From a virus (taxonomy: Duplodnaviria > Caudoviricetes), in the IMG/VR virus record IMGVR_UViG_3300020463_000001, positions 128,001-192,000 of that record: a stretch of DNA of 64,000 bases; one strand, 5' to 3'. Made by a program: the position numbers and the translations under genes. This document shows positions 2,163 to 51,400 of this stretch, piece after piece. Position 1 is the first letter of the stretch; the number at the start of each line of letters is the position of its first letter. Below the pieces are notes generated by a model, which was given only the letters and a program-made list of their open reading frames with translations, had not been told where the DNA came from and searched no databases.

Positions 2163-2186
2163 TAGTTAAAATTTTAGGAGAAAACA

Positions 2187-2738
2187 ATGGCGTTTGATAT
2201 CGCATCATTCAAATCAAGATTGAGAAACGGTGGAGCAAGACCTAATCTATTTGAAGTAGAAGTAGGAAATCCAATTGACGGTTCTGCAGATGACGTATTT
2301 CGTTTTCATTGCAGAGCGGCCCAGTTACCAGCATCCACAATACCCGCAATTGATGTTCCTTATTTTGGAAGACAGGTGAGGATTGCCGGAAACAGAACAT
2401 TTGAGCCTTGGACGGTTACAATTCTTAATGATGAAGATTTCTCAGTAAGAACTGCACTTGAAAACTGGATGGGTGGAATTAATGATCATGCATCAAATTT
2501 ACAGTTTAACAGTCAAACATCTTATAAGAATAGAGATTCTAAAGTCGTTCATTATGGTAAAGACGGTTCAGTTATTGCAACATACAAGTTTGTTGGTATT
2601 TTCCCAACAGAACTTGGTGCGGTAGAGCTCGCGTGGGATTCTAATGATCAGATTGAAGAATTTACTTGCACATTTGCATATGACTATTGGTTGCATGAAG
2701 AAGCAGCCGGAGGCCTGAGGGTTACCGTAAGTCTATAA
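2187..2738 (+). CDS. gp19: tail tube protein
   Basis: GGARPNLFEV, GRQVRIAGNRTFEPWTVT, IEEFTCTFAYDYW; synteny. Confidence 0.96.
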   Translation: MAFDIASFKSRLRNGGARPNLFEVEVGNPIDGSADDVFRFHCRAAQLPASTIPAIDVPYFGRQVRIAGNRTFEPWTVTILNDEDFSVRTALENWMGGINDHASNLQFNSQTSYKNRDSKVVHYGKDGSVIATYKFVGIFPTELGAVELAWDSNDQIEEFTCTFAYDYWLHEEAAGGLRVTVSL

Positions 2739-2769
2739 TACTCCCGAATTTACACAACTATTTTTTCAT

Positions 2770-2777
2770 TATAAATA
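2770..2777 (+). promoter_or_regulatory. T4-type late promoter embedded in a 17-bp inverted repeat (2747-2789)
   Basis: TATAAATA upstream of gp20. Confidence 0.8.
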
Positions 2778-2803
2778 GTTGTGTAGATTTAAGGTGATGT
2801 TAA

Positions 2804-4649: not shown

Positions 4650-4919
4650 ATGAAGACTTTTTCTCAATTTTTAGAAGATGATTTAGACGAAGCGGTAAAA
4701 CGTAAAGTTGTTATCCGTGGCGGAAAACGCAAGATTAAGTTTAAGTCTGACAGGGCCGGATACAAAGTTGACGGCAATAAAAGAGAAGTCAAAATTTCTG
4801 CATCAGATAAAGTCAAAATGAGTTTGAGAAATAAAAAGTCTGCTCGAAAGAGAAAGGGCAAAGTTGCTATTTCTAATACTCGCAGAGCAAGGTCAATGGC
4901 CAAACGTACAGGAACATAG
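4650..4919 (+). CDS. gp68: basic prohead core protein (gp68-like)
   Basis: Lys/Arg-rich, MKTFSQFLE..LDE N-terminus, precedes gp21. Confidence 0.75.
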   Translation: MKTFSQFLEDDLDEAVKRKVVIRGGKRKIKFKSDRAGYKVDGNKREVKISASDKVKMSLRNKKSARKRKGKVAISNTRRARSMAKRTGT

Positions 4920-4921
4920 AC

Positions 4922-5569
4922 ATGAAACTAATCACAGAAATTTGCGAAGATCTAATTGTTGAAGAAAAAGGAAAAGACCTTTATATCGAAGGTGTTTTTC
5001 TCCAGTCAAATGTAGAAAACAGAAATGGCAGAGTGTATCCAAAAGAAGTTCTTGAGAAAGAAGTCAAAAGATATACAGAAAATTACATCAATAAAAACAG
5101 GGCATTCGGTGAATTAGGTCATCCGGATGGGCCCTCTATTAACCTAGAAAGAGTTTCCCACATGATTAAATCTCTCAAACTTGAGGGCGATAATTATGTC
5201 GGTAAAGCAAAGATTATGAAAGAAACTCCTTATGGTGCAATAGTATCAAATCTTATCAAAGAAGGTGCGTCTCTTGGTGTTTCTTCTAGAGGTATGGGAA
5301 GTGTGAAGTCTACGAAAGAAGGAAACAATGTAGTGCAAGGTGATTTTTATCTTGCGACTGCGGCCGATATCGTGGCGGATCCATCTGCTCCTGATGCATT
5401 CGTAAATGGAATCATGGAAGGAAAGGAATGGATTTGGGATAATGGTATTATCCGCGAAGCACAAATTGACAGTTATCGAAATGCAGTTAGGTCTGCAAAG
5501 TCTAAAGAGATGGAAACTACTAAGATAGGACTCTTTGAAGATTTCTTCGAAAAATTGTCTAAAAACTAA
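4922..5569 (+). CDS. gp21: prohead core protease
   Basis: NRNGRVYP, GELGHPDGP, GVSSRGMGS, DIVADPSAPDA. Confidence 0.97.
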   Translation: MKLITEICEDLIVEEKGKDLYIEGVFLQSNVENRNGRVYPKEVLEKEVKRYTENYINKNRAFGELGHPDGPSINLERVSHMIKSLKLEGDNYVGKAKIMKETPYGAIVSNLIKEGASLGVSSRGMGSVKSTKEGNNVVQGDFYLATAADIVADPSAPDAFVNGIMEGKEWIWDNGIIREAQIDSYRNAVRSAKSKEMETTKIGLFEDFFEKLSKN

Positions 5570-6764: not shown

Positions 6765-8126
6765 ATGTATACAGAAATGCATTTGTCAGAGCAACTTCAA
6801 GAGAAGTGGAAGCCGGTAATCGAGCATCCCGATCTACCTAAGATCGAAGATTCTTACAAGAGAGCGGTAACTGCTATGCTTCTTGAAAACCAAGAAAAAG
6901 TTGCAAGAGAAGAAGCATCAATGTTGACTGAAGGGCCGATAAATGCAGTTGGTGGCGGTATGTCTCCAGTTGTCGGTGGTGAAGGCAACATTAAAGGTAT
7001 GGATCCAGTACTGATCTCATTGATCAGACGTTCTATGCCCAACCTGATGGCGTATGATGTTCTAGGTGTTCAACCTATGAGCGGCCCAACAGGTCTTATC
7101 TTCGCGATGAAATCACAATACGGCGATCAGGCCGGCGAAGCACTTTACGGCGAAGCAGATACTGCTTTCTCTGGTGCCTCAAGTCCTGTTCACAACGGAA
7201 CTGATCCATTCAGTGGTGTCGCAGTAACTGGTTCTGGCGCTTCTGCCGAACTTGATTACTCTGGTAGCGATTACACATCTGGAGGGCCCGCCGCTACTGC
7301 TAAGGCAGAAGCATTGGGAGACGGTACTGTAACTGGAATGGGTACAGGCGGTCACTTCAATCAGATGTCATTCTCAATCGATAGAGTATCTGTGACAGCG
7401 CAATCAAGAGCACTGAAAGCAGAATACACTATGGAATTGGCACAAGATCTGAAGGCAGTTCACGGTCTAGACGCTGAAAGCGAATTATCAAACATTCTTT
7501 CTTCAGAAATCACTGCTGAAATCAACAGAGAAGTTCTGAGAACAGTATACGCAGTTGCAAAGCCTGGCGCACAAGCTGGTGTAACTACGAAGGGTGTTTT
7601 TGATCTAGATGCTGACGCAGATGGTCGTTGGTCAGTAGAGAAGTACAAAGGTCTTCTTTACCAGATCGAAAGAGAAGCAAACGCAATCGCTAAAGAAACT
7701 CGTAGAGGAAAAGGTAACTTGGTTATCTGTTCTTCAGACGTTGCTTCGGCTCTCGCCATGTCAGGTGTACTAGATTACAACCCTGCGCTACAAACTAATC
7801 TTTCAGTTGATGACACAGGTCAAACTTTTGCCGGTGTTCTTAACGGAAGAATGAGAGTTTATATTGATCCTTACTTTACATCAACCTCTGGTTATGAGTT
7901 GTTGGTTGTAGGTTATAAGGGATCTTCACCTTATGATGCTGGTATTTTCTACTGCCCATACGTCCCATTACAAATGGTTCGCGCAGTGGGTGAAAATACT
8001 TTCCAACCTAAGATTGGATTCAAGACCCGATACGGAATTGTTGCAAACCCATTTGCATCAATGAGTTCTGGTTCAAACCAATACTACAGAAAGGTTGCCA
8101 TCTCAGGATTGACAGCAATCGGTTAA
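6765..8126 (+). CDS. gp23: major capsid protein
   Basis: GVQPMSGPTGLIFAM, SRALKAEYTMELAQDLKAVHGLDAE, YCPYVPLQM, FQPKIGFKTRYG. Confidence 0.99.
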   Translation: MYTEMHLSEQLQEKWKPVIEHPDLPKIEDSYKRAVTAMLLENQEKVAREEASMLTEGPINAVGGGMSPVVGGEGNIKGMDPVLISLIRRSMPNLMAYDVLGVQPMSGPTGLIFAMKSQYGDQAGEALYGEADTAFSGASSPVHNGTDPFSGVAVTGSGASAELDYSGSDYTSGGPAATAKAEALGDGTVTGMGTGGHFNQMSFSIDRVSVTAQSRALKAEYTMELAQDLKAVHGLDAESELSNILSSEITAEINREVLRTVYAVAKPGAQAGVTTKGVFDLDADADGRWSVEKYKGLLYQIEREANAIAKETRRGKGNLVICSSDVASALAMSGVLDYNPALQTNLSVDDTGQTFAGVLNGRMRVYIDPYFTSTSGYELLVVGYKGSSPYDAGIFYCPYVPLQMVRAVGENTFQPKIGFKTRYGIVANPFASMSSGSNQYYRKVAISGLTAIG

Positions 8127-39067: not shown

Positions 39068-39075
39068 TATAAATA
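39068..39075 (+). promoter_or_regulatory. T4-type late promoter
   Basis: TATAAATA heading the 39.1-47.8 kb cluster. Confidence 0.85.
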
Positions 39076-39097
39076 TTCTATTAAAGGAATATTTTTG

Positions 39098-40351
39098 ATG
39101 CACGATTTTACTGATTTCTTAACGGAAGCGAAAGGTGGAAAAAATCTACACCTAGAACATATAGAAGAAGAAATCATCAATCATGGAATTGATGGTGGAC
39201 GCGCTGCATTAAATTTTCTTCGTTCTCTTCGTAATATGCTCGCCGGAACATCAGGTTCTAGAGTTAATATGACCGTTAAGTGGGACGGAGCTCCAGCAAT
39301 ATTCGCCGGAGTTGATCCATCAGACGGCAAGTTCTTTGTCGCAAAGAAAAGTGTTTTCAATGTCAACCCAATACTTTATAAGAGCATTAAAGATATTAAT
39401 GATGATACTTTATCTGCCCAACTTGATTCCAAATTCAAAATAGCATTTAATGAGTTCAAGAAACTCAATATCAAAGGTGTCATACAGGGAGACTTGATGT
39501 TCACCGATGATGTCTCTACTACCAAGATAGATGGTAAAACCTATTATACATTTCAACCAAACACTCTAGTATATGCTGCAGAAGTAAATTCTGATCTTGG
39601 TAAACAAATTAATAAGGCCAAGATTGGAGTAGTTTGGCACACCACATATAAAGGAAGTGATCTACAAGATATGTCTGCATCATTTGGTGTCAATATATCC
39701 GGACTTAAAAAGTCTTCTTCTGTTTGGATGGACGATGCGACATATAAAGATGTCTCTGGTAGTGCGAAGTTTACTAAATCCGAAACCGATCAAGTGACTA
39801 AAATATTATCTGGCGTTGGAAGTTCATTCAGAAAAATTAAATCATCTGAATTAAGAAAGTTCTTATCTATGCAGGATAAGAGTTTTTCTAAGTCGAAGGT
39901 CGGCGGGTCATTCAAAACATATTTAAATCAATTCATCAAATCTGGGAATAATTTTTCTGTACAAAATGTCAAAAACCTAAATTATTCTATGTACGTTAAA
40001 AAGTATTACGATGAAAAAGTAATATCGAAATTGAAGTCTGCAAGGGGCAGAGAGGCAAAAGAACAAGAGAGAGATGAATTAGTAAAACAATTGATCTCGT
40101 ATGATAAATTAATAATAAACTTGGTAGAATTCATGCAAGGATTAGTTTCTGCGAAGTCAATTATTGTAACGAAGTTGAATAAAGTGAAACAACTTACCGA
40201 TATCTTTATAAGAACTTCAACTGGATATGAAGTAAGTAATCCGGAAGGATATGTTGCTATTGATAGGAGTGGTAAGGGTGCGGTAAAACTGGTCGATAGA
40301 TTAGAGTTTAGTTATAATAACTTTACTGCTGCGAAAAACTGGGATAAGTGA
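39098..40351 (+). CDS. conserved protein with KxDG motif (ligase/nucleotidyltransferase-like) and capsid-targeting-like N-terminus
   Basis: MHDFTDFLTE; HLEHIEE; TVKWDGAPA; QGDLMF; EGYV; VKLVDR. Confidence 0.6.
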   Translation: MHDFTDFLTEAKGGKNLHLEHIEEEIINHGIDGGRAALNFLRSLRNMLAGTSGSRVNMTVKWDGAPAIFAGVDPSDGKFFVAKKSVFNVNPILYKSIKDINDDTLSAQLDSKFKIAFNEFKKLNIKGVIQGDLMFTDDVSTTKIDGKTYYTFQPNTLVYAAEVNSDLGKQINKAKIGVVWHTTYKGSDLQDMSASFGVNISGLKKSSSVWMDDATYKDVSGSAKFTKSETDQVTKILSGVGSSFRKIKSSELRKFLSMQDKSFSKSKVGGSFKTYLNQFIKSGNNFSVQNVKNLNYSMYVKKYYDEKVISKLKSARGREAKEQERDELVKQLISYDKLIINLVEFMQGLVSAKSIIVTKLNKVKQLTDIFIRTSTGYEVSNPEGYVAIDRSGKGAVKLVDRLEFSYNNFTAAKNWDK

Positions 40352-40352
40352 T

Positions 40353-40820
40353 ATGTACAAGTATAGAGTTGATGTGATAAAAGTTATTGATGGTGACACA
40401 GTAGATGTTGATATCGATTTAGGATTTGGTGTTTGGTTAAAGAAAGAACGAGTTAGATTATATGGAATTGACACTCCAGAGTCCAGAACCAGAGATTTAG
40501 AAGAAAAGAAATTTGGATTACTCGCAAAAGACTTCTTACAGGAAGCCTTAATGGGAGATAAATATGATGAGGTATTACTACAAACTCACAAAGACGAAAA
40601 GGGTAAGTTTGGTAGAATACTTGGTGAGTTTATTGTAGTAGATAACGCTGGTCATCCTACGTTTGAAGTAGAATTAAATTTAAACGATATGATGATAGAA
40701 CGCAAGATGGCGGTTGCCTATTACGGTCAGAGCAAAGATGATATTGAAGAAGGTCATCTAAAGAATAGAGAATACCTCTATGAGAATGGAACGGTAGAAT
40801 TTGAAATTGCGGAAAGTTAA
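40353..40820 (+). CDS. staphylococcal nuclease-like (thermonuclease) protein
   Basis: VIDGDTVDV, RVRLYGIDTPE, GKFGRILG. Confidence 0.9.
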   Translation: MYKYRVDVIKVIDGDTVDVDIDLGFGVWLKKERVRLYGIDTPESRTRDLEEKKFGLLAKDFLQEALMGDKYDEVLLQTHKDEKGKFGRILGEFIVVDNAGHPTFEVELNLNDMMIERKMAVAYYGQSKDDIEEGHLKNREYLYENGTVEFEIAES

Positions 40821-42181
40821 TGAGAGATTATAAACAAATATTCCTCAACGAGAAACTCAAGAGAGTTGCACAGGACAAAGATATCGAAGATAAAGAAGGT
40901 ACTCAACCGAAGAAGTACTACGCTGGAGATATGTCTAAATCAACTAAAGATAAACGTGCAGCACACTTCAAAAAGAAGAAGTCTGGGCCTGCTCCAGGCG
41001 ATGCTGGTGCGAAAACAAAACCATCCAAACATACATTAAAGTATAAGAAGATGTATGGTGAGGAAGAGAACGAAGCAGTATCTCCTGCCCAACAGGCAGC
41101 GATTGCCATTGCAAAAAAAGAAAAGAAAAAACAACAAGAGAAACTTGATCCTAAGAAGGATGATGCCGGAGATTATATAGACGATTTCCGCAAGTCAGAC
41201 GCTCCTCAGTTTAAGGGTAAGTCTGACAAAAAGATTCAAAAGATGGCCATCGCAGCATATCTCAAAGACAAAGAAAAATCAGAAGAAGTAGATTTAGAAG
41301 AAGGCATAAATGATCCTTCTATATTCAAGGCAGTATTCCTCGCAGGAGGGCCCGGATCCGGTAAATCATTCATTGTAGGTCAAACTGGACTGGTTGCGCT
41401 TGGCATGAAACTTGTTAATTCAGATCCAGCATTTGAGAAGTTACTCAAGAAAGCAGGATTATCAACAACTCCAGATGATATAATGTCGCCGCAAGGACAA
41501 GCAGTCAGAGGTAAAGCAACTAAGCTGACAGACATTCAGAAGTCAATGTATATTAAGGGAAGATTGGGACTTGTCATCGACGGAACTGGGAAGAACTTCA
41601 AGAAGATATTAACACAAAAGAGATACTTAGATCAACTAGGATATGACTCTGCAATGATTTTTGTCAACACAGATCTTGAGACTGCATTAGAAAGAAACCG
41701 AAATCGTCCAAGACAATTGCCAGACGCAGAAGTAGAAAAGATGTGGAAGGGAGTTCAGAAGAATATCGGTAGATTCCAGAACACATTTAAGACAAATTTT
41801 TATGTGGTGGACAACTCTGACGGTGCAGATTTCGCAAGAGACTCAAAGAGAGTTTATAAAGATATTAAAACTTGGTCTACTAAACCTCCCAAGAATAGTA
41901 TCGGCAAAGATTGGATAACTCAGGTGAAGAAACAAAGAGGTATCAAGGAGGATTATTCTATGGACATATATGAAGATCAAGAATCGAAGATGGCATTAAC
42001 TCAACTCAGAGCCCTCGCAGATAAAGCAGAACAACTCTCAGATGAACTAATTGGTCTTCTGCGTGATTCTCCTAATCAGGATATCGAATTGGACGCATGG
42101 GTTCAGGCAAAGATTACTAAGGCAAGTGATTATATGACATCCGTCTATGATTACATGATGTATTCGGAGAAAGAAGATTGA
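40820..42181 (+). CDS. multi-module protein with a zeta-toxin/AAA_33-like P-loop kinase
   Basis: KAVFLAGGPGSGKS, VNSD, VIDGTG, RNRNRPR; basic N-modules and a helical C-module separated by acidic linkers. Confidence 0.75.
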   Translation: MRDYKQIFLNEKLKRVAQDKDIEDKEGTQPKKYYAGDMSKSTKDKRAAHFKKKKSGPAPGDAGAKTKPSKHTLKYKKMYGEEENEAVSPAQQAAIAIAKKEKKKQQEKLDPKKDDAGDYIDDFRKSDAPQFKGKSDKKIQKMAIAAYLKDKEKSEEVDLEEGINDPSIFKAVFLAGGPGSGKSFIVGQTGLVALGMKLVNSDPAFEKLLKKAGLSTTPDDIMSPQGQAVRGKATKLTDIQKSMYIKGRLGLVIDGTGKNFKKILTQKRYLDQLGYDSAMIFVNTDLETALERNRNRPRQLPDAEVEKMWKGVQKNIGRFQNTFKTNFYVVDNSDGADFARDSKRVYKDIKTWSTKPPKNSIGKDWITQVKKQRGIKEDYSMDIYEDQESKMALTQLRALADKAEQLSDELIGLLRDSPNQDIELDAWVQAKITKASDYMTSVYDYMMYSEKED

Positions 42182-42501
42182 AAGACTTTAAACAATACAT
42201 GACAGAAAAAGTCAAGGTAGAAGTACAGAATCCACAAAGTCTTGAAGATTTCGAAGATCCTCAAGTATACTTTAATGGAATATATACATATAGTACTCTC
42301 AATATGAAGTTGAGGGGTTATGTGGATCAACTATCTCGCGCAGTCAAAATGAAAAACTGGAAACAAGCCGGAAGTCTTATGGAGAAGGGTGGGATGTCTA
42401 TGAATATTCCAGACCTCATAGAAGCAATTGAACAAGTTGAAAAGGAAATGGGTTCTAGGACATGGAAATCCAAGAGAACCAAAATGAAAAAGAAAGGATA
42501 A
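42178..42501 (+). CDS. hypothetical protein with capsid-targeting-like N-terminus
   Basis: TTG start; MKDFKQYMTE. Confidence 0.55.
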   Translation: MKDFKQYMTEKVKVEVQNPQSLEDFEDPQVYFNGIYTYSTLNMKLRGYVDQLSRAVKMKNWKQAGSLMEKGGMSMNIPDLIEAIEQVEKEMGSRTWKSKRTKMKKKG

Positions 42502-42504
42502 ATT

Positions 42505-42681
42505 ATGTGTGTTAGTGAAAAACAAGATTTAGTAAATACTCTGAGAAGAGAAATTGCTTATGCAGAGTCACAGGTTCGTCCATCTGCGACAGGAAATATT
42601 ATTACCGCAATCAGTTGGATGAAAACTAGAGTGGAAGAATTAGAAACACAACTCAACGAAGAGTACTTGGAAGCAATGTAA
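42505..42681 (+). CDS. small hypothetical protein (58 aa, not in ORF track)
   Basis: AAGGA RBS; MCVSEKQDLVNTLRREIAYAESQ...; TAATG-coupled to the next gene. Confidence 0.6.
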   Translation: MCVSEKQDLVNTLRREIAYAESQVRPSATGNIITAISWMKTRVEELETQLNEEYLEAM

Positions 42682-43232
42682 TGAAAAGTTTCGCGTCTTA
42701 CAATAAGACTATATGTGAAGATTGCAGCGAAGCAATCCGATTTCATTTAGAGAATGATATACCATTCCTAGAGAATATATTTCGTATGGGTTCTGAAGGA
42801 TTTTTTGAATTCTTTATAGAGGCCAAAGGATTATATCATGAAGGTAAATTAGAACACCTAAATGAATCCGACATAGAGATATTAAATACCGACATAGGAG
42901 ACTTTGCGGAGTTTGAAGGCGAAGAAGTCCCACTGGATTTACCTATGTCAGAAGAAGAAAAAGATGTGGAACTGAATAAACCCAAGAGAGGCGGCAGTAA
43001 AAAATATTATGTTTATGTTAAGAATGATAAAGGAAATGTTATAAAGATTTCGTTTGGTGATGATACTGGACTCTCTGCAAAAATCAATGACCCCGAAGCA
43101 AGAAAATCCTTTAATGCTAGGCATAAATGTGCTCAAAAGAACGACAAAACAAAGGCCGGATACTGGGCTTGTCGTTTACCGAAGTATGCTAAATCATTGG
43201 GACTTTCTGGCGGGGGTAACTTCTTTTGGTAG
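42681..43232 (+). CDS. conserved phage protein (acidic N-module, basic C-module ARKSFNARHKC...AGYWAC)
   Basis: MKSFASY..ICE N-terminus; LNE and MSE motifs. Confidence 0.6.
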   Translation: MKSFASYNKTICEDCSEAIRFHLENDIPFLENIFRMGSEGFFEFFIEAKGLYHEGKLEHLNESDIEILNTDIGDFAEFEGEEVPLDLPMSEEEKDVELNKPKRGGSKKYYVYVKNDKGNVIKISFGDDTGLSAKINDPEARKSFNARHKCAQKNDKTKAGYWACRLPKYAKSLGLSGGGNFFW

Positions 43233-43501
43233 AACCATACGTTCAAACCTCAATAACATCAAATAAATTCCTCAGAACATTCCCAGAAACAGTCGATGAA
43301 GATTCTCTCGTATGGCATAGAGATATAAACACAAGACACATGAGAGTAATAGAAGTAGGAGATTGGTATTTTCAGAAAGATAATATTTTACCAGCAAAGT
43401 TAAAATTTGATGATGAGTTTATTATATGGGAAATGGAATATCATAGGTTAATAAAAAAAAGTGGCCACCTTATTATCGAAATTACTGAGTTCCGGAAATA
43501 A
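43226..43501 (+). CDS. small cupin-like protein
   Basis: LVWHRD...YHRLIK metal-ligand pattern. Confidence 0.55.
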   Translation: MVEPYVQTSITSNKFLRTFPETVDEDSLVWHRDINTRHMRVIEVGDWYFQKDNILPAKLKFDDEFIIWEMEYHRLIKKSGHLIIEITEFRK

Positions 43502-43523
43502 CGAACAGATAAATACAAGTACT

Positions 43524-43940
43524 ATGAGTAAAGAATACAAATACGAAGATATAGATTACGGTTTCACTGCCGTCGATGAAGACGAACTTGCGGAACTCCG
43601 ATCTGCGCCTCAAGAAGTCTCGGTCAAGATTGACGGTGTAGATAGTGAAATACAAAATCTTGGTATCAAAATACAAGAATTAGTAGAACTTCAGACAGAT
43701 ATTATGTCTGAGTTGGTCGATACGAAACAACTGTATCAGGAAAAACTGAGCGGATTAGATATAACCAGTGAAGTTACGGAAGATAAGTTAATGAAAGTAG
43801 AAAAACTTATTATGCCACTTCTTTATAATTTATTGAAGAACAAAGAGAAAGATTATATTTACTGGCCCAATCGTGAACCGATTATCAAAACTCAGATAGA
43901 AAAGATACTTGAAATAACAAGGACTTCCGATGAAGGATAA
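43524..43940 (+). CDS. conserved T4-like coiled-coil protein
   Basis: DYGFTAVDEDEL; PLLYNLLKN..DYIYWPNR; start ATG 43524. Confidence 0.6.
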   Translation: MSKEYKYEDIDYGFTAVDEDELAELRSAPQEVSVKIDGVDSEIQNLGIKIQELVELQTDIMSELVDTKQLYQEKLSGLDITSEVTEDKLMKVEKLIMPLLYNLLKNKEKDYIYWPNREPIIKTQIEKILEITRTSDEG

Positions 43941-44934
43941 AGTAGTCTTCACATTCGGAAGATTTAATCCTCCAACAATAGGACATGAGAAGTTGTTGGA
44001 TAAAGTCTATGCGGTTGCTTCTAGAGAGGGGGCTGATTTCTTGGTGTTCCCTAGTCACTCTCAAAACCCAAAGAAAGATCCATTGGATTTCAGATCCAAG
44101 GTCAAATTTATGAAGAAGATGTTTCCGAAGTATTCTAAGAACATTATGTCAAATAATAAAGTCAAGACTGCGTTTAATGCTGTCAGTCTTCTTCATGAAC
44201 TGGGATACAAAGAAGCGTTAATGGTTGTGGGTGGAGATAGAGTATCAGAGTTTAATAGTGTCCTTAATAAGTATAATGGAGTTGAAGGCAGACATGGTTT
44301 CTATGACTTCGAAGGTGGAATCAAAATAGTATCTGCAGGAGAAAGAGATCCAGATGCGGAAGGTGTCTCCGGTATGTCTGCGTCTAAGATGAGAACAGCC
44401 GCTGCAGCAAATGACTATGACTCGTTTAAAAATGGATTGCCATCTAAGTTTAGAGGCGGAGACCTTCTATTTAAAATGTTGCGTAAGGCAATGAAAGTAG
44501 AAGAAACAGAATTAGGAATATTTCTTGGTTCTGATGTTAATACTTTCAGAGAATTTATAGAGTCTCCTACAGTAGAATCTATAGAAGTATTTAATGATAA
44601 GGAACTCATACAAGAATTTTATACCCCAGTTAATCTACAGAAGAGAGAATCATCTATCTCAGGTTTCAAGTCTTTTCTTAGCGAAGAGAATGTCGAAGAA
44701 GATTTTACTAATATTCCTTGGATTGATGATACTCTAGATAGATTGTTTAGAAGAAGTAGATATAAGATGGCGCTTCAATACTTTTTCAAGTTTTACGACA
44801 AAGATCCACAACATAATTCTAGAAATGCGTTAGATAGGGCCTCTAAAGTTTTGGGATTAGAACCTTTACCTCTTCAAAAATATGTCATATCTTTAATTAA
44901 AAAAGGTAAGATCCCGAAAAAGTACTCTTTCTAA
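43930..44934 (+). CDS. HIGH-family nucleotidyltransferase (cytidyltransferase-like) with C-terminal extra module
   Basis: TFGRFNPPTIGHEKL, VVGGDRV, SAGERDPD, MSASKMR. Confidence 0.85.
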   Translation: MKDKVVFTFGRFNPPTIGHEKLLDKVYAVASREGADFLVFPSHSQNPKKDPLDFRSKVKFMKKMFPKYSKNIMSNNKVKTAFNAVSLLHELGYKEALMVVGGDRVSEFNSVLNKYNGVEGRHGFYDFEGGIKIVSAGERDPDAEGVSGMSASKMRTAAAANDYDSFKNGLPSKFRGGDLLFKMLRKAMKVEETELGIFLGSDVNTFREFIESPTVESIEVFNDKELIQEFYTPVNLQKRESSISGFKSFLSEENVEEDFTNIPWIDDTLDRLFRRSRYKMALQYFFKFYDKDPQHNSRNALDRASKVLGLEPLPLQKYVISLIKKGKIPKKYSF

Positions 44935-44938
44935 AAAT

Positions 44939-44946
44939 TATAAATA
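44939..44946 (+). promoter_or_regulatory. T4-type late promoter
   Basis: TATAAATA before the 960-aa gene. Confidence 0.85.
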
Positions 44947-44966: not shown

Positions 44967-47849
44967 ATGGGGATCGTTATGGAATCTGGTCACAATTCAT
45001 TCAAAAATTTCCTTGAGTGGCATAAGAAAGAAGGCGCAGAAAGAAGAGTCCGTGGTGGAGATAAGAGGAAACCTCATAACAAAGAGTTAGAGGAATCTGA
45101 TGAAGCACTTAAAGGCAAAGCCGAAAAAAGTGGTATCTCTCTTGGAATTCTAAAACAAGTCTACAATCGTGGAATGGCTGCATACAAGACAGGTCATCGC
45201 CCCGGCACAACTGCACAACAATGGGCACTTGCCCGTGTCAACTCCTTTATCACCAAAGGAAAAGGAACATGGGGTGGTGCGGATAAAGATCTCGCTGCTA
45301 AAGTCGGTGGTGGAACCAAGAAAGAACAAGCTCCTTGTTGGGATGGATATAAACAAATAGGAATGAAAAAGAAAGGGAACAAGATGGTTCCCGATTGTGT
45401 CCCAGAGTCTTTTAGTGGAGCAGAGAAACAACCATTCAAATCCAAGGCTGGTGCTGGAGAATTTGCATCCAAAGAACTAGAAAAGAAATATCGCAAAGGA
45501 ACTCCTGGCCAACCAAAGAAAAAGATTGAAGATGCCACGATAACAGAAAAACTAGATTATGATTTGTATCACAAAACATTTTCTGCCGCAATGCAACATT
45601 CTTACAAGGTGGCAAAGAAAAGAGGATTCAAAGTATCTGCAGATTCGATAGATACACAGGTCGCATTTGGCCCTCGCAAACCATCAAACGGAAAGATGAA
45701 CAGTTATCATTTAGACTTGGATGGAGAAAGAAATAAGAAACTTCGCGTTCAAGTATACAACACCGGAAAGTCATACGAACTGAATATGTATATTGAGTCT
45801 ATGGAACTTAATGAGAGAATGTCCAGAAAAGACTTTGAAAAACTGAAGAAAGGCGATAAGGTAGAAATAAATTACGGTAGCACCATGTCTGGTTCTACGA
45901 CTAGAGAGTTTTCTGTAGTCAATAGATCCAGAAGTGCGAAGTATGATGTTGATAAGATAAGACTACAACCGACAGACAAGACTGGCGGAATGAAATTCTT
46001 TCTCTATAGCAGAAAGGGTGGAGATGCCACCCTCGCACTTGGAGATATGGGCGCATCCATTAAGAGTTATAGATTGACAGAAGAAGTCGAACTTCGAGAG
46101 AAGAAGTACAGTCCTTCTGATGAAAAGAAAATCCAAAAAACAATTAGTATTATGAAGAAGTATCCAGACAATAAAAAGAAGTCGGATAAAGAATTAAGAG
46201 ACGGTGCGATTGAATATCTATTCCACAATAGAACTATGAAAAGAAAGAAGGTAGAAACTACAGAAGGTTTCACCACATCACAGATTGGTAAACTGAAGAA
46301 GGCATACTCTACTGTTTCTACTGTAGATCCTACTAGTTCTTCTTATAAAAAATTAACAAAGATGATTAAGTCTCAGGATAAAGAAGCTCTGACTCAAATT
46401 GCAAAGGCAAAGGTTAACTTTGTCTCTCAGATAGCTGCAACAGAACTTCGAAGAACTCACAACATTAAACTGAAGGCTTCTGAATTTATGGAGGAAATTG
46501 AGATGAATGAGTCAGAATTTAAGACTGTCAAAGGAAAAGATGGTAAGAAGTATGACGTTAAGATTTCTATGGACGGCAAAAAGTTCAAGTTTAGAGTGAC
46601 GGATAAGACCGGAAATGTAGGCGCATTTAAGGTTATATCTCTAGGCCAGGCTGCAAAACTCTTTGAGAACCTAGAAGAACTTATAGATATCACTGAAGAA
46701 AGTGGTATCGAACTTGCTCGTAAAATTGTTGACAGAAAACAACACATGAAGGGAATTGATTTGACCACTGCTGGTCTTATTCTACAAGTTTATGATAAAG
46801 TAAACGATAAGAATAAATCGAAGATGGAGAAGATGTCTGGAAAACAACTTGCTTCTGTTGTCTACAAAATGCTTTCTAAAGAAGAAGTTCAAGAGGAACA
46901 TGATATGTATGGATATAAATTATTCAATGAAGAAGTTGAACTTGATGAGAAATTGAAAGTTGGGGATAAGGTCAAGTTCAAGAAAGGCATCGACCCAAAG
47001 ACTGCTAGAAGTTATGGAGACGCAATAAGGAAGTCTGGCAAGGTTGTGAAGGACTACGGTGATGGTGATGTCAAAGTAAACTTTGGTGGTAATAATGATA
47101 AGTCTGTTGATGCTAAACTATTAGTAAAAGAAGAAGTAGAACTAGAAGAAGCGACAGGAAAAGAAATTGCTGCACTCATGAAGAAATCCAAGACTATGAA
47201 AGGATTTGCTGCTAAAGTTGCGAAGATGAAGACTGTCACCGTAGATGATCTAGAAGATATGCTTCCCGATTATGTTTCTGGTGGAGATATCAGAAAGATG
47301 TTCGAAGCTCATTGTAGTTCTAAGAAAATGAAGAAAGAAGGAATTACCGATGAAGATGTTGCACAGTTTATTGGTGCCGCGTCTGCTGCTAAGAAGGCTG
47401 GAAAGAAAAATTTCTCATTTGGTGGTAAGTCTTATCCAGTAACGATCTCTGGAGATACTGCAAAGAAGGTTCTTGAGGACTCTCTTGAGGAATCCTTGCA
47501 AGAAAAGATGGATCCTACAGAACACGTTGAGAAAAATAAAGAAACTGGGATGTATTGTGTCTATGATGCCAACGGGAAGAAAGTAAAAGAATTTGAGGAT
47601 AAGGAAGAAGCAGATGACTATGCTATCAAGAATCACGAAAAATTGATGGCTGTAAAGGAGTCTAAATATACAGACATAGAAGAATTAATTGAGTCTTCTG
47701 ATAAAAAAGACGCAGCAGAGATGTCGAAGTTAGTGAAAGAATTGCAACCAAAAATTTCTAACTCTGAATTGAAGAAAGAGGTTCATGCAATGGCAATGGA
47801 AAAATATAAGAACAAAACTAGAGCGAAGAAGATCGCCAGTTTTGCATAA
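44967..47849 (+). CDS. large modular putative internal-head polyprotein
   Basis: Lys-rich modules separated by EEVELxE-type motifs; NSFKNFLE near the N-terminus; alternative start 44979. Confidence 0.6.
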   Translation: MGIVMESGHNSFKNFLEWHKKEGAERRVRGGDKRKPHNKELEESDEALKGKAEKSGISLGILKQVYNRGMAAYKTGHRPGTTAQQWALARVNSFITKGKGTWGGADKDLAAKVGGGTKKEQAPCWDGYKQIGMKKKGNKMVPDCVPESFSGAEKQPFKSKAGAGEFASKELEKKYRKGTPGQPKKKIEDATITEKLDYDLYHKTFSAAMQHSYKVAKKRGFKVSADSIDTQVAFGPRKPSNGKMNSYHLDLDGERNKKLRVQVYNTGKSYELNMYIESMELNERMSRKDFEKLKKGDKVEINYGSTMSGSTTREFSVVNRSRSAKYDVDKIRLQPTDKTGGMKFFLYSRKGGDATLALGDMGASIKSYRLTEEVELREKKYSPSDEKKIQKTISIMKKYPDNKKKSDKELRDGAIEYLFHNRTMKRKKVETTEGFTTSQIGKLKKAYSTVSTVDPTSSSYKKLTKMIKSQDKEALTQIAKAKVNFVSQIAATELRRTHNIKLKASEFMEEIEMNESEFKTVKGKDGKKYDVKISMDGKKFKFRVTDKTGNVGAFKVISLGQAAKLFENLEELIDITEESGIELARKIVDRKQHMKGIDLTTAGLILQVYDKVNDKNKSKMEKMSGKQLASVVYKMLSKEEVQEEHDMYGYKLFNEEVELDEKLKVGDKVKFKKGIDPKTARSYGDAIRKSGKVVKDYGDGDVKVNFGGNNDKSVDAKLLVKEEVELEEATGKEIAALMKKSKTMKGFAAKVAKMKTVTVDDLEDMLPDYVSGGDIRKMFEAHCSSKKMKKEGITDEDVAQFIGAASAAKKAGKKNFSFGGKSYPVTISGDTAKKVLEDSLEESLQEKMDPTEHVEKNKETGMYCVYDANGKKVKEFEDKEEADDYAIKNHEKLMAVKESKYTDIEELIESSDKKDAAEMSKLVKELQPKISNSELKKEVHAMAMEKYKNKTRAKKIASFA

Positions 47850-47859
47850 GTGAGGTATC

Positions 47860-48219
47860 ATGGGTAAGTTTACGCCGCCTAAGTGGGCAAAATTCGCAGT
47901 CGCGACAGATAAGGGATGGGAAGATTCCAGAACTGGAGAACTCTTAGTTTCTATGAGAAACTTAAAGACCGATATGGAAGCCGCCGCAGCACCTGTCGTT
48001 GCAGAACCAGAGCCTGTTGAAGAACCAGTGGTCGAAGAGAAACCCAAGAAGAAACGCGAACAGAAAAATCATTTCGCAGCAAAACCAGAATCGCCAGACT
48101 TTGAATCAATGACAAAAGAAGAACTGGAACTCTGGGCAAGAGAACACATAGATGTCGAGTTGGACAGAAGAAAGACTAAGAAAAGTCTTATCGAAGAAAT
48201 ACAGGAAAATTTAAAGTAG
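47860..48219 (+). CDS. conserved T4-like protein with C-terminal Rho-N/HeH-like helical motif
   Basis: PPKWAK..ATDKGW...TGELLVS; MTKEELE..DRRKTKKSLIEEI. Confidence 0.55.
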   Translation: MGKFTPPKWAKFAVATDKGWEDSRTGELLVSMRNLKTDMEAAAAPVVAEPEPVEEPVVEEKPKKKREQKNHFAAKPESPDFESMTKEELELWAREHIDVELDRRKTKKSLIEEIQENLK

Positions 48220-48238: not shown

Positions 48239-48451
48239 ATGGCAGTATCACAATTTGGTCAAGAGAACTATATCGCAAACGGCCTAGGAATCCCTGCCCA
48301 CGATTTTATAGAAAACTCATACGAATCCTCTACTAATAATTTGATTGCAGTTGAATACAAACTTGGAGGTTCGTCCGGTACAGTGGTTGCCCGTTTAGAT
48401 TTTACATATGATTCATCCGGAAACTTACTGACTGTTGAAAGGACGGCGTAA
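48239..48451 (+). CDS. small fibre-associated structural protein
   Basis: IPAHDFI...YKLGGSSGTVVA..TYDSSGNL; coupled to the fibre gene. Confidence 0.55.
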   Translation: MAVSQFGQENYIANGLGIPAHDFIENSYESSTNNLIAVEYKLGGSSGTVVARLDFTYDSSGNLLTVERTA

Positions 48452-51400
48452 TGAGTTATAGATATAATCCACTATCCGGAAAGATAGAATTTGTAGGAAT
48501 CTCAACCTCAGATGGAACATCTCTCGAAGCAACTATCAATGAGAAAGTTGCAAACTTAGTAGATTCTGCACCAACTACATTGGACACGCTCAATGAGTTG
48601 GCTGCTGCGTTGAATAATGATCCTAACTTTGCGACATCTACCGCGACATTGCTTGGCGAAAAGGCACTCGCAACTGATTTGGCGTCTTTGGCTGCGTCTC
48701 TGAACCAAGTTGCAACATCTGGTTCTTATGCAGATTTGACCGGCACTCCTACTTTGGTTAATATTGCAACATCTGGTTTATATGCGGATTTAACTGGTGC
48801 TCCCGATTTGTCTGATGTCGCAACATCTGGTTCTTACGCCGACTTGACCGGAACTCCTACTAATGTTTCTGATTTTACAAATGATGAAGGATTTATCACT
48901 GATTATACTGTAACAGAATCTGACGTAACAGGACATGAGGCGTCACTAACTTTAACTGAATCACAGATTAGTGATTTACAATCTTATTTAACTACAGTTG
49001 CATTTGCAGATTTAACATCTAAACCAACCACTGTCTCTGGTTATGGAATTACTGATGCATTTGATGGAGATTATGGTTCACTGACAAATAAACCAGATCT
49101 TTTTGACGGCGCATATTCTAGTTTATCCGGAGCTCCCACTAATGTTTCTACATTTACAAACGATTCTGGATATATCACTGGTTATACCGTCACTGAATCT
49201 GATGTTACTGGTCATGAGTCTGCACTCACCATAACTGAATCTCAAATATCTGACTTGGGATCATACTTAGTTGCTGCAGATTTATCATCTTATGCTACAC
49301 AAACATATGTAAATGCCCAAGGATTTATTACTGGTTATACCGTCACTGAATCTGATGTTACTGGTCATGAGTCTGCACTCACCATAACTGAATCTCAAAT
49401 ATCTGATTTGACACCATATTTAGTTTCCGCCGATCTGAATGGATATGCGACAGAAACCTTTGTTGGTTCGCAGGGATATATCACTGGTTATGCAGTCACT
49501 GAATCTGATGTTACTGGCCACCAAACCGCATTATCAATTACAGAATCACAGATTAGTGATTTACAATCTTATTTAACTACAGTTGCATTTGCAGATTTAA
49601 CATCTAAACCAACCACTGTCTCTGGTTATGGAATTACTGATGCATTTGATGGAGATTATGGTTCACTGACAAATAAACCAACAATACCTACCGTCCCAAC
49701 AACGGTGAGTTCTTTCACTAATGATTCTGGATATATTACAGGATATACTGTTACTCAGGATGATCTTTCTGGATTAACTATAACTGAATCTCAAATAACA
49801 GATTTGGGAGCTTATCTAGTTGCGTCTGATTTATCAACATATGCACTGACAACGTATGTAGACGCTCAAGTTGCTGGAGTTGTAAATTCTGCTCCGGAAA
49901 CATTAAATACCTTAAATGAACTGGCAACTGCCCTTGGAAATGATCCAGACTTTGCCACATCAACTGCTAATTTAATTGGCACAAAGGCAAACACTGCGGA
50001 TTTGTCTTCTGTCGCAACATCCGGTGCATACGCAGATTTAAGTGGTGTTCCTTCTTTGTTTGACGGCGCATATTCTAGTTTATCTGGAGCTCCCACTAAT
50101 GTTTCTACATTTACAAACGATTCTGGATATTTAACAACAGTTTCTTTTGATGATCTGTCTTCTTCCCCGACAACTGTCTCTGGTTATGGAATTACCGATG
50201 CGTTCTCAGGAGCATATGGAGATTTGACTGGTGTTCCTACTAATATTTCTACATTCACAAATGACTCAGGGTATTTAACTACTATATCTTATGCAGAAGT
50301 AACTGGTAAACCAACATTATTTGATGGTGCATATTCTAGTTTGTCTGGTGTTCCTACTAATATTTCTGATTTTACAAACGATTCTGGATATTTAACAACA
50401 GTTGCATTTGCAGATTTAACATCCAAACCAACCACTGTTTCGGGCTACGGAATCACCGATGCCTTTGATGGTGCATATTCTAGTTTATCCGGAGCTCCCA
50501 CTAATGTTTCTACATTTACAAATGACTCTGGTTATTTAACAACAGTTTCCTTCGAAGACTTAACATCAAAACCAACGACTATCGATGGTTATGGAATTAC
50601 TGATGCTTTTGATGGTGCATATTCTAGTTTATCTGGTGTCCCTACTACTGTTTCTACATTCGCAAATGACTCAGGGTATTTAACAACAGTTGCATTTGCA
50701 GACTTAACTTCTAAACCAACAACTGTTTCTGGTTACGGAATCACTGATGCATTTGATGGTGCGTATTCTAGTTTATCTGGAGCTCCCACTAATGTTTCTA
50801 CATTTGCAAATGACTCTGGCTATTTAACAACAGTTGCATTTGCAGATTTAACTTCTAAACCAACTACTATATCTGGTTATGGAATCACAGATGCATTTGA
50901 TGGAGATTATACTAATTTAACAAATAGACCAACTATACCGACTGTCCCAACTGCATTAAGTTCTTTTTCTAATGATACTAACTTTATCACTCTAGACGAA
51001 TCTCAATCTGGAGTCAGTGTTACCAGCGTATCCGCAAGTGGCTCCGGTTCACTTAACTATAATAATTCTAGTGGCGTATTTACATTTGCTCCTGCAGATT
51101 TGAGTTCTTATCTAGTTGCGTCTGATTTATCAACTTATGCATTAAAGACTTATGTTGATACTCAGGTTGCTGGTGTAGTAAGTTCTGCTCCAGAAACTTT
51201 GGATACTTTGAATGAATTGGCGGCCGCGTTAGGAGACGATCCAAACTTTGCAACAACAGTATCAAATCAGATTGGTACAAAGGCTGAATTGGGCGACTTT
51301 AGTGTTTCTACTGTTGCTGAAAGTGGTGCCGGATCTCTTAACTATAATAATGCTGGAGTATTTACATTTGCTCCTGCAGATCTAAGTTCTTATTTAACAA

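What the first reader, a model, noticed from the sequence alone, without database searches (positions are those of the whole stretch)
44967..47849. 960-aa apparent polyprotein of about a dozen Lys-rich mini-domains cut by EEVELxE linkers
Seen: basic modules of roughly 30-90 aa separated by acidic motifs ELEE, ATITE, ESMELNE, EEVELRE (46080), EEIEMNE (46491), EELIDITE, EEVELDE (46929), EEVELEE (47130), EESLQE and DIEE. Modules include a CWDGY..PDC peptide, two KxGDKV (SH3/KOW-like) units and helical units. Known: gp21 cleaves after (I/L/V)-X-E. Inference: the prohead protease matures one gene product into many small injected effectors, a cassette-like arsenal in which modules can be swapped.
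Basis: partly seen in the sequence, partly recalled or inferred. Interest (0 to 1): 0.75.

Follow-up and report, generated by a model that had tools for sequence, protein, structure and literature searches.

The report
Phage bead-string polyprotein with protease-site linkers
An uncultured marine T4-like phage encodes one late 960-residue, lysine-rich protein made of about a dozen small modules joined by a recurring acidic linker (EEVELxE) that looks like a cut site of the phage's own head protease, so one gene probably supplies a swappable set of small proteins packed in the capsid, although neither cutting nor packaging of this protein has been measured.

Summary
ORF 44967-47849 is real. It is 16.8% Lys, pI 9.4.

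The strict linker E[VI]E[LM]xE occurs 4 times, against 0.06 expected. In the whole 200.7-kb genome it is found in only three other ORFs.

In about 265 relatives, the same small modules occur in other orders and in other genes. Of distinct module starts, 90% are preceded by [LIVM]-x-E, against an 18% background.

DNA comparison with two near relatives puts homology breakpoints inside the linkers. One module is 96-97% identical but sits at another position.

AlphaFold gives separate folded beads, with confidence minima at the linkers.

Several features fit loading into the prohead and cutting by gp21:
- a T4 late promoter;
- an S77 protease gene;
- an L-T-E|G site in gp23;
- CTS-like N-termini in the cluster;
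- published virion proteomics of the syntenic genes in cyanophage S-SCSM1.

That reading is still inferred (confidence about 0.6). "Injected effectors" is weaker, because no module has a known function.

No paper describing this was found. This scan has noted look-alike polyproteins on other phage DNA.

The parts
44939..44946 (+). T4-type late promoter TATAAATA in the 32-nt gap before the gene
   Evidence: 18 matches in the window against 5.4 expected, 17 of them on the + strand. At least nine lie just upstream of a gene start (93, 2187, 2804, 5618, 6765, 8276, 15835, 39095, 44967). Sequence.
44967..47849 (+). 960-aa modular Lys-rich ORF (P0001). The alternative start is Met5 at 44979.
44967..45095 (+). 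N-cap (aa 1-43). It contains SFKNFLE, which resembles capsid-targeting N-termini, and ends in ELEE.
   Evidence: this N-terminus recurs only at protein starts in about 15 relatives. It resembles MKTFSQFLE of ORF 4650 and T4 MKTYQEFIAE.
45096..45326 (+). Module A: DUF5824 helical domain (aa 44-120)
   Evidence: Pfam PF19141, E 1.4e-15. Four-helix model. 3882 clusters in 1.84 billion representatives.
45327..45407 (+). Module B: CWDGY..PDC beta-hairpin (aa 121-147), ending in VPE
   Evidence: 54 hits in relatives. Hairpin in the models. A matching CWPGY..NNC stretch, seen by eye, is in the virion-detected S-CREM2 gp160.
45408..45548 (+). Segment C: basic, low-confidence stretch (aa 148-194), ending in ATITE
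   Evidence: pLDDT below 50 at aa 149-198. Net charge +4.
45549..45815 (+). Module D: YDLYHK..YELNMY alpha+beta module (aa 195-283), ending in ESMELNE
   Evidence: 89 hits in 88 proteins with varied neighbours. Ten-residue block means of pLDDT 61-85.
45816..46100 (+). Module E: KKGDKV beta-rich module (aa 284-378), ending in LTEEVELRE
   Evidence: 44 hits. Ten-residue block means of pLDDT 66-89 over aa 281-370. The nucleotide homology to relatives breaks at aa 376.
46101..46511 (+). Module F: helical region (aa 379-515), probably two sub-modules split at aa 432/433, ending in EEIEMNE
   Evidence: Breakpoint at aa 433 against L004.
46512..46697 (+). Module G: FKTVKGKDGKKY beta module (aa 516-577), ending in EELIDITE
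46698..46949 (+). Module H: helical module (aa 578-661), ending in EEVELDE
   Evidence: 46 hits. Model.
46950..47150 (+). Module I: KVGDKV module (aa 662-728), ending in EEVELEE. It sits at another position in close relatives.
   Evidence: 96-97% nucleotide identity to L004 and L006, but at aa 545-620 and 504-580 there, with both breakpoints in linkers. Weak SH3_15 hit.
47151..47306 (+). Module J (aa 729-780), ending in KMFE
   Evidence: Homology restarts at aa 780.
47307..47504 (+). Module K: AHCSS..ITDEDV module (aa 781-846), ending in LEDSLEESLQE (three tandem L-x-E)
   Evidence: 42 hits..
47505..47660 (+). Module L: MDPTEH alpha/beta module (aa 847-898); acidic
   Evidence: pLDDT 84-91. 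Homolog inside HTVC008M gp132.
47661..47846 (+). C-cap (aa 899-960), helical, ending in AKKIASFA
   Evidence: Found at the extreme C-terminus of 43 of 119 relatives and never internally.
4922..5569 (+). gp21-type prohead protease, the candidate processing enzyme
   Evidence: Peptidase_S77, E 1.6e-39; phrog_207
6924..6932 (+). L-T-E codons in gp23, aligned with the T4 gp23 maturation site FLTE|A
   Evidence: MAFFT alignment with T4 gp23. Coordinates.
4650..4919 (+). 89-aa basic internal-protein-like ORF with the N-terminus MKTFSQFLEDDLDE|A
   Evidence: Compare T4 IPI, IPII and IPIII.
39095..44934 (+). Upstream late cluster drawing on the same module pool: DUF6267, SNase, kinase polyprotein, small ORFs and cytidylyltransferase
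   Evidence: Late promoter at 39068. Pfam and PHROG hits. Shared modules. Module indel bounded by LDE and IDE.

Best explanation
P0001 is a late-expressed cargo polyprotein of a T4-like marine myovirus.

Architecture (shown): a conserved N-cap, about eleven small and mostly basic, independently folding modules, and a conserved C-cap. They are strung together by a short acidic linker with consensus (K)-E-E-V-E-L-x-E.

Most likely course (inferred):
1. The chain is made late in infection.
2. It is recruited into the prohead core, through its CTS-like N-cap and perhaps its C-cap.
3. It is cut after the last Glu of each linker by the phage's gp21-family protease, whose known rule is L/I-X-E.
4. 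This releases 5-16 kDa Lys-rich proteins that stay with the packaged DNA, like T4 internal proteins, and probably leave with it at infection.

The same linker is also the junction at which relatives gain, lose and move modules by recombination (shown at the DNA level). One promoter and one targeting signal would therefore serve an exchangeable set of cargo proteins.

What the individual modules do is unknown. Possibilities are DNA charge neutralisation or condensation, early host takeover, and anti-defence.
For: Shown here:
- The strict linker occurs 4 times against 0.064 expected. It is found in only 4 ORFs of the 200.7-kb genome.
- EEVEL and VELDE are the most recurrent 5-mers with distinct flanks in 119 relatives, with 127 and 108 contexts. 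The best domain-core word (ELNMY) has 53 and GHRPG has 28.
- 188 of 209 distinct module starts are preceded by [LIVM]xE, against an 18% background.
- In an independent set of 146 diverse DUF5824 proteins, 53 of 63 module starts are preceded by [LIVMF]xE.
- P1' after the linker is Ala in 65 of 210 cases and A/S/G in 113 of 210. This matches the glutamyl-alanyl bonds cut by gp21 (PMC9026906).
- AlphaFold gives pTM 0.28, with folded beads and pLDDT below 50 at or next to the linkers.
- blastn against near relatives puts breakpoints inside the linkers. Module I is transposed at 96-97% identity, while the flanks are 84-90% identical.
- A module indel bounded by LDE and IDE is present in the neighbouring gene.

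Context:
- TATAAATA lies 21 nt before the ATG.
- An S77 protease is encoded.
- gp23 has L-T-E|G aligned to T4 FLTE|A.
- CTS-like N-termini occur in the same genome: MKTFSQFLE.., MHDFTDFLTEA, MRDYKQIFLNE. Compare T4 MKTYQEFIAE|A.
- Module size, Lys content and pI match T4 IPI, IPII and IPIII.

Experimental, indirect:
- The syntenic block of S-SCSM1 is annotated as virion proteins from MS. It includes the NMNAT gene, which starts MKSFLQFLKE|A, and the 520-aa gene at the position of P0001, which contains EEVELDE.
- The cytidylyltransferase of S-CREM2 (MKNFSSFLTE|A) and gp160, which carries a CWPGY..NNC stretch like module B (by eye), were detected in virions.
- T4 can package and process CTS fusions as large as beta-galactosidase.
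Against: - No cleavage product, virion peptide or expression datum exists for this protein or for any close relative.
- The minimal [LIVM]xE motif is only mildly enriched (p about 0.02).
- The N-cap is not a canonical 10-residue CTS: it has F-L-E, with Phe at P3.
- Many relatives start directly with the cytidylyltransferase domain and have no CTS.
- For DUF5824, the upstream L-x-E lies in a predicted helix and is kept even in N-terminal copies (MDILNEKIEGL). There it may belong to the fold rather than be a cut site.
- P1' is often Lys, Asp or Asn, and the preference of this protease at P1' is unknown.
- The S-SCSM1 protein at the same position has no detectable homology to P0001.
- The authors of the proteomic papers themselves caution that abundant late proteins may co-purify with virions.
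- No fusion of these modules to a head protease or scaffold was found.
Confidence: 0.6

Rival explanations
1. P0001 is an uncleaved multidomain ('polyvalent'-type) protein. The chain works intact, whether packaged or not. The acidic linker is kept because it is a good flexible spacer and, above all, a recombination junction that lets modules be shuffled without disrupting folds.
For: - Module exchange at the linkers is directly seen at the DNA level.
- Polyvalent proteins with 2-15 domains, packaged intact or processed, are known (PMC5512222).
- No evidence of cleavage exists.
- The N4 vRNAP precedent shows that large virion proteins can stay unprocessed.
Against: - A spacer or recombination site would not need amino-acid-level conservation of Leu at P3 and Glu at P1.
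- It would also not need enrichment of Ala, Ser and Gly at P1'.
- The four linkers in this gene differ at synonymous positions (GTC/GTT/GTA, CTT/CTA, GAG/GAA). Selection is therefore on the peptide, not on the DNA.
- The motif equals the specificity rule of the protease encoded in the same genome.
Confidence: 0.22
2. P0001 is a cytoplasmic late protein, or a polyprotein cut by some other protease. It never enters the capsid. One possible role is a late-phase scaffold or nucleoid-binding protein set for DNA condensation before packaging.
For: - High Lys content and pI.
- The gene lies outside the head-gene block, between replication genes and a fibre gene.
- The proteomic papers warn of co-purification.
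Against: - A late promoter of the kind used by the structural genes.
- CTS-like N-termini in the cluster and in virion-detected homologs of neighbouring genes.
- Five consecutive syntenic genes of S-SCSM1 are scored as virion proteins.
- No other protease candidate was seen among the window proteins scanned.
Confidence: 0.12
3. The motifs are composition-driven coincidence in a Glu/Lys-rich protein, and the 'modules' are arbitrary.
For: The minimal [LIVM]xE motif is only 2 sd above shuffles.
Against: - The strict motif was never reached in 5000 shuffles.
- 90% of independently defined module boundaries carry it.
- pLDDT minima coincide with it.
- DNA breakpoints coincide with it.
Confidence: 0.02

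Closest known systems
T4 internal proteins IPI, IPII, IPIII and Alt (capsid targeting sequence, gp21 processing, ejection with the DNA)
   Same: - Small, basic, Lys-rich proteins of 10-20 kDa. T4 IPs are 13-15% Lys with pI 8.9-9.5; the modules here are 12-21% Lys and mostly pI 9-10.
- Late expression.
- A gp21-family protease in the genome.
- An L/I-x-E|A-type junction.
- CTS-like N-termini in the same cluster.
- Hypervariable content between related phages (PMC3012670).
   Different: - T4 IPs are separate genes, each with its own CTS and a single cut. Here about a dozen unrelated modules share one ORF, one N-cap and one C-cap, with a uniform extended linker between all of them.
- There is no sequence homology to the T4 IPs.
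- Processing and packaging are not demonstrated.
Polyvalent proteins of phages and conjugative elements (Iyer, Burroughs, Anand, de Souza, Aravind 2017; PMC5512222)
   Same: - Many unrelated domains (2-15) in one polypeptide.
- Extensive domain shuffling.
- Predicted packaging into the capsid and delivery with the DNA.
   Different: - Those proteins are built from recognisable enzymatic or conflict domains. They often carry their own zincin-like peptidase, and no uniform linker is described for them.
- P0001 has only DUF5824 plus unassigned mini-domains.
- It has no peptidase domain.
- It has a near-invariant linker matching the head protease's site.
Head, inner-body and ejection proteins of giant phages phiKZ, 201phi2-1 and SPN3US, cut by a gp21-like protease at S/A/G-x-E
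   Same: - A prohead protease related to gp21 cuts many internal proteins after Glu at a three-residue motif.
- Propeptides contain redundant tandem sites. Compare the tandem L-x-E sites here: LTEEVELRE and VLEDSLEESLQE.
   Different: - In the giant phages, propeptides are trimmed from individual proteins. No string of unrelated modules released from one chain is reported.
- The P3 preference differs (small residue against Leu/Ile/Val/Met).
Polyproteins of RNA viruses, processed by a viral protease at repeated consensus sites
   Same: One translation product. Repeated short protease sites between functional units. Stoichiometric production.
   Different: A different virus realm and protease fold. 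Those polyproteins are essential replication or structural proteins in a fixed order, not shuffled accessory cargo.
Pfam DUF5824 (PF19141), and cytidylyltransferase/NMNAT-like virion proteins of cyanomyoviruses (phrog_3041)
   Same: - Residues 51-108 match DUF5824 (58 bits against a cut-off of 25).
- phrog_3041 joins the cytidylyltransferase of the upstream gene and this DUF5824 in one profile.
- NMNAT-like proteins are repeatedly found in virion proteomes.
   Different: In this phage the cytidylyltransferase and the DUF5824 lie in two adjacent genes. DUF5824 has no known function.

Membership tests
T4-type CTS-targeted, gp21-processed internal head proteins | The genome encodes a gp21-family (Peptidase_S77) prohead protease | tested here: met
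   Window 4922-5569, PF03420, E 1.6e-39
T4-type CTS-targeted, gp21-processed internal head proteins | L/I-X-E motif at the junction between the removed and retained parts | tested here: met
   [LIVM]xE is at every proposed junction and at 188 of 209 module starts in relatives. This is presence of the motif only, not cleavage.
T4-type CTS-targeted, gp21-processed internal head proteins | N-terminal capsid targeting sequence of about 10 residues (T4: MKTYQEFIAE; residues 4 and 7 target, residues 8 and 10 are needed for processing) | tested here: inconclusive
   From Met5, P0001 reads MESGHNSFKNFLEW. The F-x-x-F-L-E core resembles MKTFSQFLE (ORF 4650) and T4, but it is shifted by 4 residues and has Phe at P3.
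T4-type CTS-targeted, gp21-processed internal head proteins | Late transcription together with the head genes | tested here: met
   TATAAATA at 44939-44946; the motif is enriched and precedes structural genes. This is a sequence prediction, not expression data.
T4-type CTS-targeted, gp21-processed internal head proteins | Physical presence in the head, cleavage by gp21, ejection with the DNA | not testable with these tools
   Only indirect evidence: the syntenic genes of S-SCSM1 and S-CREM2 were detected in virion proteomes.
T4-type CTS-targeted, gp21-processed internal head proteins | Sequence homology to IPI, IPII, IPIII or Alt | tested here: not met
   No internal-virion-protein family appeared among the PHROG or Pfam hits of the whole protein or of its ten pieces. 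The claim is therefore 'works like', not 'is a member of'.
Polyvalent proteins (Iyer et al. 2017) | Two to fifteen distinct domains in one phage or plasmid polypeptide, with shuffled architectures | tested here: met
   13 segments. 185 piece clusters, with varied orders, in 119 relatives.
Polyvalent proteins (Iyer et al. 2017) | Domains drawn from the described conflict repertoire (MPTase, ART, ParB, PBECR, lysozyme and others) | tested here: not met
   P0001 has only DUF5824 above threshold. Relatives add Zeta_toxin/AAA_33, HD and CTP_transf_like.
Pfam DUF5824 (PF19141) | Score above Pfam's gathering threshold | tested here: met
   58-64 bits against a cut-off of 25, residues 51-108
   Module I matches SH3_15 at E 6.4e-4, 20.4 bits against a cut-off of 24. 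Module E is beta-rich in the model. The single-module fold was not searched.

The most novel reading that the evidence does not exclude
Marine T4-like phages have a general, evolvable 'cargo bus'. A fixed N-cap and C-cap, plus one short linker that is both the head-protease cut site and the recombination junction, let any small protein be loaded into the capsid in fixed stoichiometry, released there, delivered with the DNA, and swapped between phages one cassette at a time. The thousands of DUF5824-linked mosaic proteins in ocean metagenomes would then be a large, unexplored pool of injected early-acting or anti-defence proteins.
Probability: 0.35. Interest if true: 0.85.

Novelty: new variant of a known kind. 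Interest (0 to 1): 0.7.

Why it matters
If the chain is cut and packaged as proposed, tailed dsDNA phages use a polyprotein strategy, which is normally associated with RNA viruses, to load accessory cargo into the capsid. The protease site would double as a module-exchange junction.

This would explain the function of a very large family of 'hypothetical' mosaic proteins in abundant ocean phages: 3882 clusters for one module alone.

It would extend the T4 capsid-targeting paradigm to multi-protein cargo.

It would also offer a natural design rule (cap, linker, module) for loading several foreign proteins into phage heads.

The idea is directly testable by virion N/C-terminomics in cultured carriers (HTVC008M, Melnitz, S-SCSM1).

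Tried and rejected
- Whole-protein fold searches against the PDB and BFVD gave no meaningful match. TM was at most 0.09 and the alignments were long, with rmsd above 20.
- The ESM Atlas feature search for modules D+E gave no usable hit.
- The DUF5824+hairpin model gave only weak helical-bundle matches: sigma-factor region 2, Z 5.3, below the level that means anything for helical bundles. In AFDB it matched only other DUF5824 proteins.
- Pfam and PHROG scans of ten pieces gave nothing above threshold except DUF5824 and the hairpin.
- I looked for 'Rosetta stone' fusions of these modules to gp21 or gp22 among 265 relatives and found none.
- I searched S-SCSM1 for a homolog of P0001 and found none. 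Only synteny, composition and one EEVELDE are shared.
It is not in this gene.
- MAFFT alignments of mosaic fragments were partly misaligned. The whole-protein model therefore rests on a noisy alignment. Module I and parts of F to H are poorly modelled, and their low pLDDT is not evidence of disorder.
- Literature searches for DUF5824, for 'polyprotein' with T4-like/prohead/marine, and for 'capsid targeting sequence' with cyanophage found no description of this arrangement.
- The supplement of the S-SCSM1 paper holds no peptide-level data.
Full report
**1. What is there**

The window is part of a 200.7-kb contig of a T4-like marine myovirus.
- It carries a portal gene, a gp21-type protease (4922-5569, Peptidase_S77, E 1.6e-39), the scaffold gp22 and the major capsid protein gp23.
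- Its nearest cultured relatives belong to Kyanoviridae: Synechococcus phage S-SCSM1 by gp23, and Pelagibacter phage HTVC008M and Methylophilales phage Melnitz by the protein studied here.

The ORF 44967-47849 is open and 960 aa long. Database gene calls start at Met5.

The protein is 16.8% Lys, against 5.1% in other large genes of the window, and has pI 9.4. Cutting at the motifs gives 13 pieces of 43-137 aa (5-16 kDa), 11 of which have pI above 8.

Only one Pfam family is found: DUF5824 at residues 51-108.

**2. Is the linker more than chance?**

- The strict form [ED][VILM][EDQ][LMI]xE occurs four times, against 0.064 expected from 5000 shuffles, none of which exceeded two.
- In the whole genome the strict form occurs in only four ORFs. 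One of the others is the neighbouring kinase polyprotein.
- The bare [LIVM]xE motif is only mildly enriched, 25 against 17.3 +/- 3.6. The signal therefore lies in the extended motif and in where it sits, not in L-x-E counts.

**3. Modules and shuffling**

A search of 5.8 billion proteins gave more than 1365 relatives.
- All are mosaics that share some modules with P0001, in other orders.
- They are often combined with cytidylyltransferase, Zeta-toxin-like kinase or HD domains.
- In Melnitz and HTVC008M the same modules are spread over three adjacent genes in a different order.

Among 119 relatives:
- The 5-mers EEVEL and VELDE are the most recurrent words with distinct flanks. They have 127 and 108 contexts, ahead of the best domain-core word (ELNMY, 53) and well ahead of GHRPG (28).
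- For eleven modules defined in P0001, 188 of 209 distinct N-terminal boundaries in other proteins carry [LIVM]xE within a few residues. The background is 18%.
- The N-cap and the C-cap (..AKKIASFA) are found only at protein ends. The C-cap is terminal in 43 of 119 proteins and never internal.

A profile of module A+B found 3882 clusters in 1.84 billion representatives, with the module at any position in proteins of 116-1392 aa. In that independent set, 53 of 63 internal copies are again preceded by [LIVMF]xE.

**4. Exchange at the DNA level**

Two near relatives from ocean metagenomes have the same gene order, but their polyproteins are 1160 and 1144 aa long. blastn against them shows the following:
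- Nucleotide homology (84-90%) breaks inside EEVEL|RE (aa 376), at aa 433, inside EEVELDE and EEVELEE, and at KMF|EAHCSS (aa 780).
- Module I (aa 658-733) is 96-97% identical but sits about 110-150 residues earlier in the relatives.

The neighbouring cytidylyltransferase gene differs from its relatives by one module of about 122 aa, bounded by ..LDE| and ..IDE|.

The four linkers in this gene differ at synonymous sites, so the conservation is on the peptide.

**5. Structure**

AlphaFold2 on a fragment alignment gave pTM 0.28, which means no fixed arrangement of the parts.
- Confidently folded beads are at residues 41-115, 125-147, 200-280, 284-371, 850-895 and 905-960.
- pLDDT falls below 50 at or next to the linkers: 278-282, 372-386, 506-508, 546-588, 637-729, 767-792, 843-845 and 896-907.
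- Some of the low-confidence stretches reflect thin or misaligned rows.

No informative fold match was obtained for the whole chain or for DUF5824.

**6. Why the head protease?**

The published rule for gp21 is cleavage after Glu in L/I-X-E, typically at Glu-Ala bonds (PMC9026906). Four points fit that rule.

(a) The site in this phage's own gp23 that aligns with T4 FLTE|A is MLTE|G.

(b) After 210 distinct strict linkers in the family, P1' is Ala in 31% and A/S/G in 54%.

(c) A T4 late promoter, TATAAATA, lies directly before the gene. The motif occurs 18 times against 5.4 expected, and at least nine copies lie just upstream of a gene start, including the portal, scaffold and capsid genes.

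(d) T4 IPII and IPIII start MKTYQEFIAE|A, and IPI starts MKTFKEF..ITE|A. The window has similar N-termini:
- MKTFSQFLEDDLDE|A on a small basic ORF between the portal and gp21;
- MHDFTDFLTE|A on the first gene after the other late promoter of this cluster;
- MRDYKQIFLNE on the kinase polyprotein;
- MESGHNSFKNFLE on P0001.

Many relatives start MTTYRKTMAE|A.

The modules match T4 internal proteins in size, Lys content and pI. In T4, the lysines of the internal proteins contact DNA phosphates (PMC3012670).

**7. Indirect experimental support**

In S-SCSM1 the gene order is the same as here: 2OG oxygenase, several genes, NMNAT/cytidylyltransferase, a 520-aa Lys-rich protein, small ORFs, a fibre gene, primase and RNR.
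- Five consecutive genes of this block are annotated as virion proteins from mass spectrometry (PMC9602691).
- Its NMNAT starts MKSFLQFLKE|A.
- The 520-aa protein at the position of P0001 contains NKEEVELDE|R.

In S-CREM2, the cytidylyltransferase (MKNFSSFLTE|A) and gp160, which carries a CWPGY..NNC stretch that by eye matches module B, were detected in virions.

Both papers caution that abundant late proteins might co-purify with virions.

**8. Caveats**

- Nothing shows that this protein is expressed, packaged or cut.
- The N-cap is not a canonical CTS.
- Many family members begin with the enzyme domain and have no CTS.
- The L-x-E before DUF5824 lies in a predicted helix and persists in N-terminal copies (MDILNEKIEGL). 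It may be structural there.
- In P0001 the A-B junction has lost the motif, although relatives have KKESVELDE|K. A and B are probably not separated in this protein.
- The 'effector' label has no support from any module.

**9. Verdict**

Protease processing and capsid loading are the best-supported mechanism, but they are inferred (about 0.6).

The main rival is an uncleaved polyvalent-type protein whose linker serves only as a spacer and recombination junction (about 0.2).

I found no paper describing such an arrangement.

Earlier notes of this scan report look-alike polyproteins on other phage genomes. These are unverified AI notes, not independent evidence.

Noticed in passing
window 4650-4919 (+): An 89-aa, very basic ORF lies between the portal gene and gp21. 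Its N-terminus, MKTFSQFLEDDLDE|A, closely resembles the capsid targeting sequences of T4 IPI, IPII and IPIII. It is probably this phage's internal or core protein.
   Followed up: partly
window 39095-40351 (+), promoter at 39068-39075: A DUF6267 protein (418 aa) sits right after a late promoter. From its second codon it reads MHDFTDFLTE|A, a near-perfect CTS pattern. PHROG 455 joins it with the C-terminal part of the cytidylyltransferase gene in other phages.
   Followed up: partly
window 40820-42181 (+): A 453-aa protein starts MRDYKQIFLNE. It has small basic modules shared with Melnitz gene 18 and HTVC008M gp130. A Zeta-toxin/AAA_33-like P-loop kinase is preceded by SEEVDLEE|G, and the C-terminal helical module is shared with HTVC008M gp132. 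It is a second polyprotein of the same kind.
   Followed up: partly
window 43930-44934 (+) against L004:4586-5956: The cytidylyltransferase gene is 334 aa here but 456 aa in close relatives. The difference is one module of about 122 aa, flanked by ..LDE| and ..IDE|.
   Followed up: yes
window 47860-48219 (+): A 119-aa ORF just downstream has a SAP/HeH-like C-terminus. It weakly matches PHROG 8608, 'prohead protease inhibitor' (E 3.8e-6 over 35 residues), and the C-terminus of endonuclease VII. The meaning is unclear.
   Followed up: no
window 48451-52926 (+): A 1491-aa protein is made of many degenerate repeats (..SGYGITDAF.., ..SDVTGHESALTITESQISDL..). It has no Pfam hit and sits where S-SCSM1 has a tail fibre gene, so it is probably a fibre.
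   Followed up: no
L007 (S-RIM8 A.HR1) 2166-4267: Cyanophage S-RIM8 gp114 (591 aa) lies inside the structural module and carries the CWKGY..PNC hairpin and other small Cys-containing modules. The next gene starts MKSYNEFISE|S, almost the T4 CTS.
   Followed up: partly
P0001 aa 121-147 (window 45327-45407): The CWDGY hairpin model matches free-standing 38-47-aa bacterial proteins in AFDB at 51-63% identity. One of them is auto-annotated 'SSU ribosomal protein S31P'. Another AFDB row has DUF5824 at the end of an XkdF (prohead-protease-like) domain protein.
   Followed up: no
window 23-61810, 18 sites: TATAAATA is strongly over-represented (18 against 5.4 expected). At least nine copies lie just upstream of a gene start, so T4-type late promoters can be used to map late genes in this genome.
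   Followed up: partly
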